Part shown: piece after piece, positions 1 to 3,000 of the stretch | Position numbering within the stretch: position 1 is the first letter of the stretch | Layout: each line of letters opens with the position of its first letter | Program-made: the position numbers | Assembly: GCA_046262595.1 (NCBI GenBank) | Contig: JBHEMM010000041.1 | Coordinates: 1-19,389, forward strand | Length of the DNA stretch: 19,389 nucleotides | DNA from: Vulcanimicrobiaceae bacterium | Lineage (GTDB): Bacteria; Vulcanimicrobiota; Vulcanimicrobiia; Vulcanimicrobiales; Vulcanimicrobiaceae | Direction of reading: 5' to 3'

Positions 1-3000
1 CGTGAGAAGGGCGCTGATCCGATGGTCTGTCCTAAGTGCAAGAGCCCGTACTGGAACACGCCGCGCAAAAGTGTTAAAGTAAATTAGCCTCTAGCCCCAA
101 CGGTGAGGAGGTTTAGTGCGCTCGACGGGATTTGAACCCGCACGGGTTAGGGCCCACTAGGATGACAGCCTAGCGCGTCTACCGATTCCGCCACGAGCGC
201 GAGATCCAAAGGGGAAGGACGGTTTAGGGATCGGACCTTCCCCTTTGCCTTGAATAAGATAGGGTTACATCGGCGGTTCCTCGGTCATCAGCGCGAATGT
301 GCCGTCCGGGCGGGTGTCAATCCGGCGCCCCTCCTGCCGCTGTTGATAGATGAGCGTAGCTAAGGATTTATCGGGATTATTGCTACCGGCAAGATAGCCT
401 TGCGCCTTCAACTGCTCTATCAACTGATCGCCCTTCGCCCCTGAAGCACCGAACCCCAAGAGGACTTCCCGCAAGGCATCGCCCGCACGTTTGTAGTTTG
501 AGCCGTAGCGGCCGGGCGGCTGCTTTTGCGCTGGCCGACCGTTTGAATGCGCCGGGGCCGCAGTCATCGCCGATCCCGCCCAGCGCCAATACCCACGACC
601 CTGCCGCCGAATCGGCTTCTTCTTTAACTTCAAGTTGTTGAGAGCGTTCCTAACCGCGTTGACCGGGCTTTTAGCGGCCGTCGTAAAACCACGGCCCCGC
701 AGCTCCGCCTCGATGTCCTCGGCGGTCATCCGCCTTCCGCCGGCCGCCTTCAAGACATCAAAGACGGCGTCCTGAAAGGTTTCTGGGGCACGCGGTGCGG
801 CGGAGTGATTGGAGCCGGAACCTGAAGTATGAACCGAGGCCATAGATTCAAGTTGCCGGACAAGGCGCTGGCGGAGCTCGATATTGGATGCAATAATGGC
901 CCGCTTCTCACGAAGGAATTGAAGTTGCCGCTCAGCATCGGCTATATCGCGCTCGACGAGCTTCAGGTCGTACTCCGTTTGCTGTAGTTCGGCGCGCGCG
1001 TTTTCCGGGGTTTCCACCATGTTTTCACCTACCTGGATAGGGCGAGTGCCGCGTACTGGGCCGCCCTCCCGCTGGGGGCATTCTACACCCTGTTAGGCGA
1101 ACAGTCAAATCAATACGAACATCCATGAATCTATCCGTGAATGATCCGACCTGCTCCATTCGACAGTATGTCTGCAAAACTCTAATAAAAATGGACTTTT
1201 ACACCACGGAACGACCGGAAAAACCGATCGCACATTCTATGGTTGACACGTCATGGTAGACTTATTCCAAAGACGCGGGCCGGGTCTTGGTAGCGGCAAG
1301 GTCTCCAAAACCAACGCGAGTGGGTTCGACTCCCATCCGGTCCAGCAGGGCAATGGCTGTCCACGGGCACGGCTGTTGAAGCGGGGCTGTTGGTGCGAGG
1401 AGATCAGCCCTTCCCTAATTTTACTCTGGGATGATATGATGTGCCCGGAGACCTTGTCGCGGGCCACGCCCGTTTCAAGCCAAAGAGCCAGGCGAACAAC
1501 GCTTGGCTCTTTTTTGTGCAGATAACCGACTTATTAGGCAGGCAGGCTTTCCTGGGCAAAGCCGCGTCAGATATATCATCTTGACACTTGTCAAGGTGAC
1601 ACGTCTATTGGTCTATTGCTGTATTGCCCGGCCCGGGTGGTCGTTACCGTGCGCCACTGAGCCTCAGCCACCGTTACGCACGTCGCGTCCTGGGCAACAT
1701 TGCCGCTATGAACAGCACTGAGTTAGGCGGCAGCGGCCTTCGCGTTTCGGCGATGGGCCTCGGCTGCATGGGAATGTCGGATTTTTACGCCGGCTACGAT
1801 GATGCGGAGTCCATTGCGACGATTCATCGCGCGATCGAAGTGGGCGTCACGTTCTTGGATACGGCCGATATGTACGGTGTGGGCAAGAACGAAGAGCTCG
1901 TCGGACGCGCGATTGCGGACCGCCGCGAGCGCGTCGTGCTTGCCACGAAGTTCGGTAACGTGCGCAAACCGGACGGCACGTACGCCGGCGTGAGCGGAAC
2001 TCCGGAGTACGTACGCAGTGCGTGCGAGGCCAGTTTGAAACGCCTTAACGTCGAGACGATCGATCTGTACTACCAGCATCGCGTCGATCCGCAAACGCCG
2101 ATCGAAGATACGGTGGGAGCGATGGCCGAACTGGTGCGCGAGGGTAAAGTGCGCTATTTAGGACTATCCGAAGCGGCGCCCGAAACGATACGCCGGGCCG
2201 CCAAGGCGCATCCGATCGCCGCGCTGCAAACGGAGTATTCGCTCTGGACGCGCGATCCGGAGAGCAACGGCGTGCTGCAGACGGTGCGCGAGCTGGGGAT
2301 CGGATTCGTGGCCTACAGTCCGCTCGGGCGTGGCTTTTTGAGCGGCCGCTTTCAAAAGCCCGAGGATCTGCCCGCTGACGACACACGGCGAAACCACCCG
2401 CGCTTCCAAGGCGAGAATTTCCAGAAGAATTTGCACCTCGCGCGCCTCGTGCAAGAGATTGCGAGTGAAAAGAACGCTACGGCCAGTCAAATTGCGCTCG
2501 CGTGGCTCTTGGCGCAAGAGGATGTGGTGCCGATTCCCGGCACGAAACACCGGAAGTACTTAGAAGAAAACGTGCAGGCGACCGGTGTTACTCTCTCCGG
2601 GCAAGATCTCGCACGCATCGAGCAAGCGTTCCCCGTCGGCGCCGCTTCGGGCGAACGTTACCCGGAACAAGCGCTGGCAGCGGTGCACCGCTGACGAAAC
2701 GGGTACGACGTTATCATGGCTGACACAAAACACAGTTTGCAAACCTATATTAGCGACATGCTTGCGCTCGAAGAGCACGTGCGCGTGCCGTTCGAGGCGC
2801 AGCTGAAGGACGAGGACCTTTCATCGTATCCCACGGCGCAGACGCTGCTGCGCCGCCTATCCGACCTATCGAACACGCACATCGACGCGCTCAAGAACCT
2901 GCTCGAGCAGTACGGCGGGCACGAAGCGCATCCGGTAAAGGGAGCCGTCAGCGCGACGGCGGGCTTCTTCGCAAGCGCTATCGACAAAGTGCGGAAAACG

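What a model noticed while it worked through the whole genome (the two positions that open the first line are those of the whole stretch)
116..200. A leucine-type (class II) tRNA that carries the aspartate anticodon GUC
Beside a normal 77-nt tRNA-Asp(GUC) (C6:29802-29878) the genome has an 85-nt tRNA (C41:116-200, minus strand) with a clean cloverleaf, the D-arm/D-loop of this genome's tRNA-Leu genes, a long variable arm, discriminator A73 and an Asp-like anticodon loop CUGUCAU. Boldest reading: since bacterial LeuRS ignores the anticodon, it is charged with leucine and puts Leu at GAC/GAU (Asp) codons, a natural, probably conditional, mistranslator, one of a rare hybrid-tRNA family that turns up in at least five other phyla and on a phage contig, often beside mobile-element or defence-type genes, so that it may be island cargo (a proteome-poisoning weapon or a stand-in for a cleaved tRNA-Asp in phage confl [...]
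Evidence so far: rna.tsv: ARAGORN tRNA-Asp gtc, 85 nt, Rfam tRNA 60.1 bits; cloverleaf with 7-bp acceptor, 5-bp anticodon stem, 3-bp variable stem, 5-bp T stem. blastn-short against the genome's tRNAs: best other hits are tRNA-Leu(CAG) 22 of 23 and tRNA-Leu(GAG) 23 of 25 over the D-arm, none to tRNA-Asp; stems differ from every Leu gene here, and GUC is 2-3 changes from every Leu anticodon. In 100 other Vulcanimicrobiaceae genomes the only match at E<=1e-8 is an ordinary tRNA-Leu(GAG), 74% identical. Exact-pattern scan of 185,579 species genomes for a Leu-type D-arm followed at the right distance by CTGTCA: 25 places, 9 of which ARAGORN calls as 83-97-nt tRNAs with anticodon GUC, long variable arm and the sa [...]
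(Added by a program. Inside this text positions count along the whole contig: contig position 1 is position 1 of the stretch shown here. "Call 12" and the like, gene names such as g00115 and contig names such as C1 are that model's own, and its searches are not shown. The text may have been shortened before it was handed on; [...] marks where a part breaks off. The agent that wrote the report below was given it as the finding of a first reader that could run no searches.)

Follow-up and report, generated by a model that had tools for sequence, protein, structure and literature searches.

The report
Leucine-type tRNA with aspartate anticodon
This soil bacterium carries an extra, intact transfer RNA built like a leucine tRNA but reading aspartate codons, one of many such anticodon-swapped leucine-type tRNAs in bacteria, so it may put the wrong amino acid into proteins, though loading and use are untested.

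Summary
Window 116-200 (-) is an 85-nt class II tRNA (ARAGORN; Rfam tRNA 60.1 bits) with anticodon GUC. It has every bacterial leucine identity mark that I could read, and it lacks three of the aspartate marks.

It lies on an insertion that three same-genus genomes lack. The insertion is flanked by an exact 16-bp direct repeat and is split over two contig ends.

It is not a one-off. A scan of one genome per species gave 36 loci, 26 with intact GUC tRNAs of this build (A73 in 24). A looser pattern found 45 intact leucine-type tRNAs with nine other non-leucine anticodons in 37 of 401 Gemmatimonadales genomes (A73 in 44). These aim at the commonest codons, sit beside normal isoacceptors, and some are syntenic between species. 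Phage long-arm tRNAs with the Asn anticodon keep the Asn mark G73 (12 of 12), which makes the constant A73 informative.

Best reading: LeuRS loads it with leucine and it competes for GAC/GAU codons. Charging, expression and role were not tested. No conserved partner protein was found.

Closest known are allo-tRNAs (serine type), nematode nev-tRNAs (leucine type) and tRNAProX. I found no bacterial leucine-type case in print. I file it as a new variant of a known kind.

The parts
116..200 (-). 85-nt class II tRNA with a leucine-type body, anticodon GUC, A73 and no encoded CCA
   Evidence: ARAGORN; Rfam tRNA 60.1 bits; sequence; identity positions tabulated
209..247 (-). Strong hairpin (12-bp stem) between the stop codon of the upstream ORF and the 5' end of the tRNA. 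It may be a weak terminator or a processing or stability element.
   Evidence: Fold of 201-264 (-): -22 kcal/mol, z -2.72, 0 of 200 shuffles fold as well. The terminator scan did not call it.
265..1020 (-). 251-aa ORF of no known family (N-terminal coiled-coil-like part), on the same strand as the tRNA and directly upstream of it
   Evidence: ORF list and translation. No Pfam, PADLOC or PHROGs family; HARE-HTH only at E 0.065. One homologue in 5.8 billion proteins, 50% identical.
1080..1108 (-). Sigma-70-like promoter match TTGACT-17-TAGAAT upstream of the 251-aa ORF, which could drive ORF and tRNA together
   Evidence: 10 of 12 matches. This is a consensus match only; co-transcription is inferred.
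1277..1343 (+). Degenerate tRNA-like element: good acceptor and T arm, loop CUCCAAA, broken D and anticodon stems
   Evidence: Rfam tRNA-Sec model 27.4 bits, below its gathering score of 47, E 0.015. Not called by ARAGORN. Fold z-score -0.23.
1584..1599 (+). Right copy of the 16-bp direct repeat ACACTTGTCAAGGTGA that bounds the insertion. The left copy lies about 905-920 bases inside contig C30, next to ribBA.
   Evidence: blastn-short found an exact 16-mer, E 3.5e-4. Same-genus genomes have ribBA directly beside the aldo/keto reductase gene.
1..87 (+). 3' end of an ORF running in from the contig end (..CPKCKSPYWNTPR.., zinc-ribbon-like), convergent with the tRNA
   Evidence: Translation. The zinc-ribbon reading is from the motif alone.

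Best explanation
The gene encodes a structurally sound extra tRNA with a leucine-tRNA body and an aspartate anticodon. It was acquired on a small insertion. The host's single LeuRS does not read the anticodon, so it most likely charges this tRNA with leucine. After CCA addition the tRNA would compete with the normal tRNA-Asp at GAC/GAU codons (about 5% of codons) and insert Leu for Asp. Because that is harmful, it is probably made at a low level or only under some condition. It may be processed from the 3' end of the transcript of the upstream 251-aa ORF. Shown: the gene, its fold, its identity marks, the insertion, and a wide class of look-alike tRNAs. Inferred: charging, decoding, expression and purpose.
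For: Leucine marks, as listed for E. coli and Aquifex in PMC9976931 section 12 (passages) and PMC2377443 (abstract), are all present: A73, U8-A14, A15 with U48, G18G19, A20a, T loop UUCAAAU and a long arm. C2-G71, an anti-determinant against SerRS, is also present. Aspartate marks (PMC9976931 section 29): the anticodon is present, but G73, C38 and G2-C71 are not. Class-level support: A73 in 24 of 26 intact GUC tRNAs and U48 in 26 of 26. A73 occurs in 44 of 45 and U48 in 44 of 45 Gemmatimonadales hybrids, whatever the anticodon, including GUG, CUC and GCC, whose normal tRNAs as I recall carry C73, G73 and U73. As a contrast, viral long-arm GUU tRNAs have G73 in 12 of 12 and viral class I His tRNAs have C73 in 11 of 11. 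Stems covary: 20 of 24 pairs. There is one LeuRS gene in the genome. The nearest annotated phage genes are all labelled tRNA-Leu. Precedent: nev-tRNAs with A73 are charged only with Leu and decode GGG as Leu in vitro (PMC3333845, abstract and passages). Allo-tRNAs insert Ser at Leu codons and stop E. coli growth (PMC5389517, section 12).
Against: There are no data on expression, CCA addition, charging or decoding. No sequencing run was listed. There is one copy, 116 nt from a contig end of an 89.7%-complete bin. No promoter was found directly upstream, and a strong hairpin lies 8 nt before the gene. LeuRS rules come from E. coli and Aquifex, not from this phylum. In bacteria the anticodon is the strongest aspartate determinant, so some charging by AspRS cannot be excluded. 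The island's own ORFs are not shielded: each has 11 Asp codons. Asp to Leu at 5% of codons should be costly, which argues for silence or a role outside translation. My search patterns fixed the D-arm, so D-arm conservation in the class is circular; A73, U48 and the stems are not.
Confidence: 0.5

Rival explanations
1. It is a tRNA-shaped RNA with a job outside decoding. It might be a decoy or regulator that offers a GUC anticodon loop to an enzyme or toxin, an uncharged A-site ligand, or a private leucine donor. It would contribute little or nothing to protein synthesis.
For: Mukai 2017 found that most allo-tRNA(UAU) species were inactive in translation, and that G-1 tRNA1 species were charged but not used (PMC5389517 section 16). 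GUC is also one of the three predominant allo-tRNA anticodons, so two unrelated long-arm chassis carry the same loop. At least one hybrid (in L400) has C33 in place of U33. The hybrids aim at the commonest codons, which would be very costly if they were decoded.
Against: No partner protein is conserved next to 36 + 40 loci. The full set of leucine charging marks, 7-nt loops with U33 and R37, and covarying stems are kept. That is more than a decoy loop should need.
Confidence: 0.22
2. It is a silent passenger: a leucine-tRNA derivative carried on a mobile insertion that is not expressed or not matured in this host and has no function here.
For: It lies on a strain-specific insertion. It has no close relative anywhere; the best is 76% identical. 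No promoter was found just upstream. A decayed tRNA-like relic lies 1.1 kb away. Ten of the 36 genome loci failed my intactness test or could not be parsed; among them were broken acceptors, truncations, one insertion and one cut by a contig end.
Against: The cloverleaf has no defect. The class is kept across species with compensatory changes, and it is in synteny in Gemmatimonadales.
Confidence: 0.18
3. It is a real aspartate tRNA in an unusual long-arm body, charged by AspRS through its anticodon, like phage long-arm tRNAs that keep their cognate identity.
For: The anticodon bases are the strongest aspartate determinants in bacteria. Viral long-arm GUU tRNAs keep G73 in 12 of 12, and 2 of 3 viral GUC ones have G73. 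An earlier scan finding (e1-5364918) reads such phage tRNAs as correctly charged.
Against: The window tRNA has A73, U38 and C2-G71. A73 occurs in 24 of 26 genome GUC copies, C38 in only 8 of 26, and G2-C71 in 10 of 26. From my own knowledge of class II synthetase complexes, a long arm would face AspRS.
Confidence: 0.1

Closest known systems
allo-tRNAs (Mukai et al. 2017, PMC5389517; sections 12-16 read)
   Same: They are bacterial long-arm tRNAs whose anticodons do not match their charging identity. GUC is among their three predominant anticodons. They come from soil bacteria and often lie near transposon or toxin-antitoxin genes. They are active missense suppressors and toxic in E. coli.
   Different: They have an 8/4 or 9/3 acceptor/T build, a Sec-like D-arm, G73 or U73, and serine (some alanine) identity. 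The window tRNA is a canonical 7/5 tRNA with a leucine-type D-arm and A73. A term search of that paper found no mention of tRNALeu or LeuRS.
nev-tRNAs of nematodes (Hamashima et al. 2012, PMC3333845; abstract and passages read)
   Same: They are class II tRNAs derived from tRNA-Leu, with A73 in all 115 copies and non-leucine anticodons. They are charged only with Leu and decode as Leu in vitro. Their role is unknown.
   Different: They are eukaryotic and described as confined to nematodes. They tend to match rare codons, whereas the bacterial ones match the commonest codons.
tRNAProX of Streptomyces and Kitasatospora (review PMC11415595, section 17 passages)
   Same: They are bacterial tRNAs with dual identity that mistranslate sense codons.
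   Different: They have a proline class I body and A33, and are often paired with a dedicated ProRSx. No extra synthetase was seen here: there is one LeuRS and none is conserved near the hybrids.
Canonical bacterial tRNA-Leu
   Same: The D-arm, A73, U48, long arm and T loop are shared. The window tRNA is 72% identical to the genome's own Leu(CAG).
   Different: The anticodon is GUC with A37. That is two or three base changes from any leucine anticodon, plus G37 to A for the CUN readers.
Phage long-arm tRNAs that keep their cognate identity (earlier scan finding e1-5364918; my viral GUU set)
   Same: They carry a class I anticodon on a long-arm body with the same D-arm type.
   Different: They keep the discriminator of the anticodon's amino acid: G73 in 12 of 12 GUU tRNAs. 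The window tRNA does not.

Membership tests
Bacterial tRNA-Leu (LeuRS identity set) | Discriminator A73 | tested here: met
   A at window 117 on the minus strand
Bacterial tRNA-Leu (LeuRS identity set) | D-loop A14, A15, G18G19 and A20a, with U48 for the A15-U48 pair | tested here: met
   D-arm GGCGGAAUCGGUAGACGC; the variable region ends in U; rule from PMC9976931 section 12
Bacterial tRNA-Leu (LeuRS identity set) | T loop able to form G18:U55, G19-C56 and U54:A58 | tested here: met
   T loop UUCAAAU
Bacterial tRNA-Leu (LeuRS identity set) | Long variable arm | tested here: met
   15-nt variable region with a 3-bp stem
Bacterial tRNA-Leu (LeuRS identity set) | Leucine anticodon (NAG or YAA) | tested here: not met
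   The anticodon is GUC
Bacterial tRNA-Leu (LeuRS identity set) | Aminoacylation by LeuRS | not testable with these tools
   Needs an aminoacylation assay
Bacterial tRNA-Asp (AspRS identity set) | G34 U35 C36 | tested here: met
   Loop CUGUCAU
Bacterial tRNA-Asp (AspRS identity set) | G73 | tested here: not met
   A73; rule from PMC9976931 section 29
Bacterial tRNA-Asp (AspRS identity set) | C38 | tested here: not met
   U38
Bacterial tRNA-Asp (AspRS identity set) | G1-C72 and G2-C71 | tested here: not met
   G1-C72 is present but position 2-71 is C-G
allo-tRNA (Mukai 2017) | 8/4 or 9/3 acceptor/T-stem build | tested here: not met
   7-bp acceptor and 5-bp T stem
allo-tRNA (Mukai 2017) | Sec-like D-arm (long stem, tetraloop) and G73 or U73 | tested here: not met
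   3-bp D stem with an 11-nt loop; A73
allo-tRNA (Mukai 2017) | Long arm plus an anticodon that does not match the charging identity | tested here: met
nev-tRNA (Hamashima 2012) | Class II, leucine-derived, A73, non-leucine anticodon | tested here: met
nev-tRNA (Hamashima 2012) | Confined to nematodes | tested here: not met
   Bacterial contig; its housekeeping genes are syntenic with same-genus genomes

The most novel reading that the evidence does not exclude
Bacteria, soil lineages such as Gemmatimonadales above all, keep a so far undescribed class of leucine-accepting tRNAs. Their anticodons have been swapped to the host's most used non-leucine codons (GCG, CGC, GCC, GAC and others). These would act as switchable proteome-wide mistranslators, either a self-poisoning or dormancy device or a stress-diversity device. 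The window's GUC tRNA would be a horizontally acquired example on a small insertion.
Probability: 0.3. Interest if true: 0.9.

Novelty: new variant of a known kind. Interest (0 to 1): 0.75.

Why it matters
Natural tRNAs that break the code on purpose are known from only a few systems: serine-type allo-tRNAs, proline-type tRNAProX and nematode nev-tRNAs. A leucine-type bacterial class would show that all the anticodon-blind synthetases have been exploited in nature. Here it is present in about one in ten sampled Gemmatimonadales species, is retained between species, and targets the commonest codons. That gives a large, testable set for asking why cells keep genes that should damage their own proteome. 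At least one intact GUC member sits in a cultured isolate (L004), so the question can go straight to the bench. For annotation, such genes are currently named by anticodon (tRNA-Asp, tRNA-Ala and so on), which is probably wrong.

Tried and rejected
1. Read-level and expression check: no sequencing run was listed for window 1-1700, so there is no evidence either way.
2. Close relatives of the window tRNA: an exact 27-mer scan of metagenome contigs found nothing. The best identity to any hybrid is 76% and to a canonical Leu tRNA 72%, so a single mobile GUC lineage is not shown.
3. Conserved partner gene: all-against-all BLASTP of neighbours at 36 loci and 40 further loci was run. The only shared families were IS1595 transposases (5 of the 36 loci), families that proved to be ordinary chromosomal genes on annotation, and spurious ORFs lying over the tRNAs.
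4. Island ORFs: no Pfam, PADLOC or PHROGs family. There is one homologue, on a 1.6-kb contig.
5. Codon reassignment: rejected. The canonical tRNA-Asp is present. Canonical Ala(UGC, GGC, CGC) tRNAs are present in 5 of 5 hybrid-bearing genomes tested; one search's pattern was too strict and one search corrected it.
6. Alanine charging of the Ala-anticodon hybrids: G3:U70 occurs in only 1 of 45.
7. Most pattern hits in the window's own phylum are not hybrids. They are tRNA-Leu(UAA) genes interrupted after U34. Many viral hits with apparent UUA, UUG or UUU anticodons are the same, judged by eye.
8. Rfam gave no group I intron match for that insert at E up to 1.
9. The tRNA-like relic at 1277-1343 does not reach any Rfam threshold.
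Full report
**What is there**

ARAGORN finds one tRNA in the window, at 116-200 on the minus strand: 85 nt, anticodon GUC. 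Rfam's tRNA model scores it 60.1 bits, E 7.8e-12.

The sequence reads as follows:
- acceptor GCGCUCG/CGAGCGC
- U8, then D-arm GGCGGAAUCGGUAGACGC
- anticodon stem CUAGG/CCUAG with loop CUGUCAU
- a 15-nt variable region with a 3-bp stem, ending in U
- T-arm GCGGG-UUCAAAU-CCCGU
- discriminator A
- no encoded CCA

The genome (122 contigs, 2.42 Mb, 89.7% complete) also has a normal 77-nt tRNA-Asp(GUC) on C6 and tRNA-Leu genes with CAG, UAG, GAG and CAA. The fifth leucine gene, Leu(UAA), is on C65. It is split after U34 by an insert of about 236 nt, which is why ARAGORN missed it.

Within the genome the odd tRNA is closest to Leu(CAG) at 72% and Leu(GAG) at 70%. It is 60% identical to tRNA-Asp, 64% to Tyr and at most 56% to Ser. 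Its acceptor stem and A73 equal those of tRNA-Arg(CCG) on C26, which I take as coincidence. In annotated phage records, every annotated gene among its best matches (81% identity or less) is called tRNA-Leu.

**Identity marks**

For bacterial LeuRS the anticodon and the sequence of the long arm do not matter. What matters are A73, the A15-U48 pair, G18G19, A20a, U8-A14 and the D/T-loop contacts (PMC9976931 section 12, passages; PMC2377443, abstract). C2-G71 acts against SerRS. All of these are present.

Aspartate identity rests on G73, G34, U35, C36 and C38, with G1-C72 and G2-C71 conserved in bacteria (PMC9976931 section 29). The window tRNA has the anticodon and G1-C72, but it has A73, U38 and C2-G71. 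The genome has one LeuRS gene (C22) and one AspRS-like gene (C57), and I saw no extra leucine enzyme.

**Setting**

From about 1624 onward the window holds housekeeping genes: an aldo/keto reductase, alcohol dehydrogenases, riboflavin genes, dapA and lysC.

Same-genus genomes G001-G003 align with the window only from about 1697-1708 on, at 74-76% identity. No listed match in 60 relatives covers 210-1563 (seven of those genomes are flagged unpublished, and 24 weaker matches were not listed).

In G002 the gene next to the reductase is ribBA. In this genome ribBA lies at C30:943-2358, near a contig end. The stretch C30:1 to about 905 (read in reverse), plus a gap, plus window 1 to about 1583, is therefore an insertion. 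An exact 16-bp direct repeat, ACACTTGTCAAGGTGA, stands at both borders (E 3.5e-4).

The insertion holds:
- an ORF of at least 260 aa with membrane and coiled-coil segments (C30)
- the tail of a zinc-ribbon-like ORF (window 1-87)
- the tRNA
- a 251-aa ORF of no family, with one homologue in the protein collection
- a decayed tRNA-like element at 1277-1343

A promoter-like site lies upstream of the 251-aa ORF. A 12-bp hairpin lies between that ORF and the tRNA. No integrase is in the assembled part.

**Relatives with GUC**

A scan of one genome per species (185,579 species) used a leucine-type D-arm followed at the right distance by CTGTCA. It gave 36 loci.
- ARAGORN of the 36 as 83-97-nt tRNAs with GUC.
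- My own parser required an acceptor of at least 6 of 7 pairs, a T stem of at least 4 of 5, and an anticodon stem of at least 4 of 5. It finds 26 intact ones among the 35 pattern hits it could parse.
- The other loci include broken acceptors, truncations, one with an insertion and one cut by a contig end.

By record titles the intact ones come from Gemmatimonadales, Planctomycetota, Alpha- and Gammaproteobacteria, Dehalococcoidia and other Chloroflexota, Bryobacterales and Solirubrobacterales. One is from a cultured Noviluteimonas isolate.

Positions that were not fixed by the pattern:

| Position | Count among 26 intact GUC tRNAs |
|---|---|
| A73 | 24 (also 1 C, 1 G) |
| U48 | 26 |
| C38 | 8 |
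| G2-C71 | 10 |

In an alignment of 23 of the 27 (the four with very long arms were left out), 20 of 24 predicted pairs show compensatory changes. The window tRNA has no close kin among them; the best match is 76%.

**A wider class**

I loosened the anticodon to any triplet without A35, which excludes all leucine anticodons, and searched three samples of genomes.

| Sample | Genomes with hits | Reversed-pattern control |
|---|---|---|
| Order of L002 (Gemmatimonadales by title), 401 genomes | 43 (55 hits) | 0 hits |
| Order of L015 (Pirellulales by title), 251 genomes | 8 | 1 hit |
| The window's own phylum, 401 genomes | 75 | 1 hit |

For the Gemmatimonadales sample I fetched 53 of the 55 hits. 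I left out G267, which is unpublished, and G061, which is L002. Of the 53, 45 are intact class II tRNAs, in 37 genomes.

Their anticodons are CGC 18, GCG 8, GGC 7, GUG 3, UGG 3, AGC 2, CUC 2, CGG 1 and GCC 1. ARAGORN agrees and adds a Val(CAC) tRNA and a GUC tRNA with C33. A73 occurs in 44 of 45, U48 in 44 of 45, and G3:U70 in 1 of 45.

In 43,906 codons from long ORFs at these loci (a crude count), the codons these tRNAs target rank as follows: GCG 1st, GGC 2nd, CGC 3rd, GCC 4th, GUG 5th, GAG 8th, GAC 9th and CCG 10th.

Five of five carriers tested also have the normal Ala(UGC), Ala(GGC) and Ala(CGC) genes.

Neighbouring genes are ordinary chromosomal ones. Two GCG copies lie next to guaA in two species: guaA is 93% identical in protein and the tRNA region is 84% identical in DNA. 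Several GGC loci are also syntenic.

In the window's own phylum, nearly all of the hits in the 75 genomes are the interrupted Leu(UAA) gene. The window's tRNA is the only GUC hit (one genome there is unpublished).

**Control from viral contigs**

Many hits are interrupted Leu(UAA) genes, judged by eye. Of the 231 that could be parsed, 64 distinct intact tRNAs remained:

| Viral tRNA group | Count | Discriminator |
|---|---|---|
| Class I His | 11 | C73 in all 11 |
| Class I Gln | 16 | G 9, U 5, A 2 |
| Long-arm GUU (Asn) | 12 | G73 in all 12 |
| Long-arm with A73 | 19 | A73 by definition |
| Other long-arm | 6 | G 3, U 2, C 1 |

The 19 long-arm tRNAs with A73 carry CUA 3, UUA 4, UCA 2, UGG 3, GUC 1 and six other anticodons once each.

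So a long arm on this D-arm type does not by itself mean leucine: phage Asn and His tRNAs keep their own discriminator. That makes the constant A73 of the bacterial hybrids, across anticodons whose normal tRNAs use G73, C73 or U73 (my recollection for His, Glu and Gly), a real signal for leucine identity.

**How it most likely works**

I think LeuRS charges it, and that it reads GAC/GAU as Leu in competition with tRNA-Asp. GAC plus GAU make up about 5.3% of codons in a crude count, and the island ORFs hold 11 Asp codons each. Expression is probably low or conditional. These steps are inferred.

Rivals are a role outside decoding, a silent passenger, and charging by AspRS. They are weighed in their own sections.

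No partner protein is conserved. Transposases occur in 9 of the 36 GUC loci, and a few loci hold prophage, restriction or toxin-antitoxin genes. That link is not general.

**What is known**
- Mukai 2017 (PMC5389517; sections 12, 14 and 16 read) describes allo-tRNAs with an 8/4 or 9/3 build, a Sec-like D-arm, G73 or U73, and serine identity. Their anticodons cover 35 codons, with UAU, GCG and GUC predominant. A term search of that paper found neither tRNALeu nor LeuRS.
- Reference 198 of the review PMC11415595 is that paper.
- Nev-tRNAs (PMC3333845; abstract and passages) are the leucine-type parallel in nematodes.
- tRNAProX is the proline-type parallel in actinomycetes.
- The review of non-canonical tRNAs (PMC7609411, term search) and the tRNAscan-SE 2.0 paper (PMC8450103, term searches) did not mention a bacterial leucine-body class in the passages returned.
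- Eight literature searches turned up none.
- Subscription papers and the supplements of these papers were not seen.

**Limits**
- There is one copy, near a contig end of a metagenome bin.
- There are no reads and no RNA data.
- D-arm conservation in the class is fixed by my patterns.
- The counts are lower bounds: copies with other D-arms exist, for example two further CTGTCA hits in G062 and the second copy in L400.

Noticed in passing
G000 contig C65:5230-5560 (locus L437 80-410): The genome's tRNA-Leu(UAA) is split after U34 by an insert of about 236 nt, at the classical site of the tRNA-Leu group I intron. The same 5' exon followed by variable sequence recurs in most of the 75 of 401 genomes of the phylum that had pattern hits. 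Rfam gave no group I intron match at E up to 1.
   Followed up: partly
window 1277-1343 (+): Degenerate tRNA-like element with a good acceptor and T arm and loop CUCCAAA (Trp-like), inside the insertion about 240 nt from its right border. It may be a relic of a second irregular tRNA or of an old attachment site.
   Followed up: partly
window 1584-1599 and G000 C30 about 905-920: An exact 16-bp direct repeat bounds an insertion of at least 2.5 kb between ribBA and an aldo/keto reductase gene. The native site in relatives holds a similar TTAACA..TGTCAAG motif, so the element may target a conserved operator-like site.
   Followed up: partly
L312-L364, L367-L406 (Gemmatimonadales genomes): There are 45 intact leucine-type class II tRNAs with Ala, Arg, His, Pro, Glu and Gly anticodons in 37 of 401 genomes, almost all with A73. 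Some loci hold two or three related copies with different anticodons, such as L400 (GGC plus GUC with C33) and L404 (CGC plus Val CAC).
   Followed up: partly
viral loci L059, L221, L259 (CUA); L115, L123, L134, L200 (UUA); L219, L228 (UCA): These are leucine-type long-arm tRNAs with A73 and stop-codon anticodons on viral contigs. They are candidate leucine-inserting suppressors.
   Followed up: no
viral loci such as L085, L101, L125, L166: Twelve long-arm tRNAs carry the Asn anticodon GUU and all have G73. They appear to be asparagine tRNAs rebuilt on a class II body.
   Followed up: partly
G000 contigs C22 and C62; C6 and C102; C10 and C92; C6 and C115: The bin holds two different tRNA-Sec genes and near-duplicate Phe(GAA), Pro(GGG) and Cys(GCA) genes on separate contigs. 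This suggests strain mixture or some contamination.
   Followed up: no
G000 C30:943-2358: The RibBA ORF, as listed from its first start codon, begins with about 60 extra N-terminal residues that look like a helix-turn-helix. The start codon was not checked.
   Followed up: no
L019 compared with L018: A contig binned as Propionibacteriaceae carries a GUC tRNA and a VanZ-domain neighbour nearly identical to those of a Gemmatimonadales bin. It is probably mis-binned.
   Followed up: no
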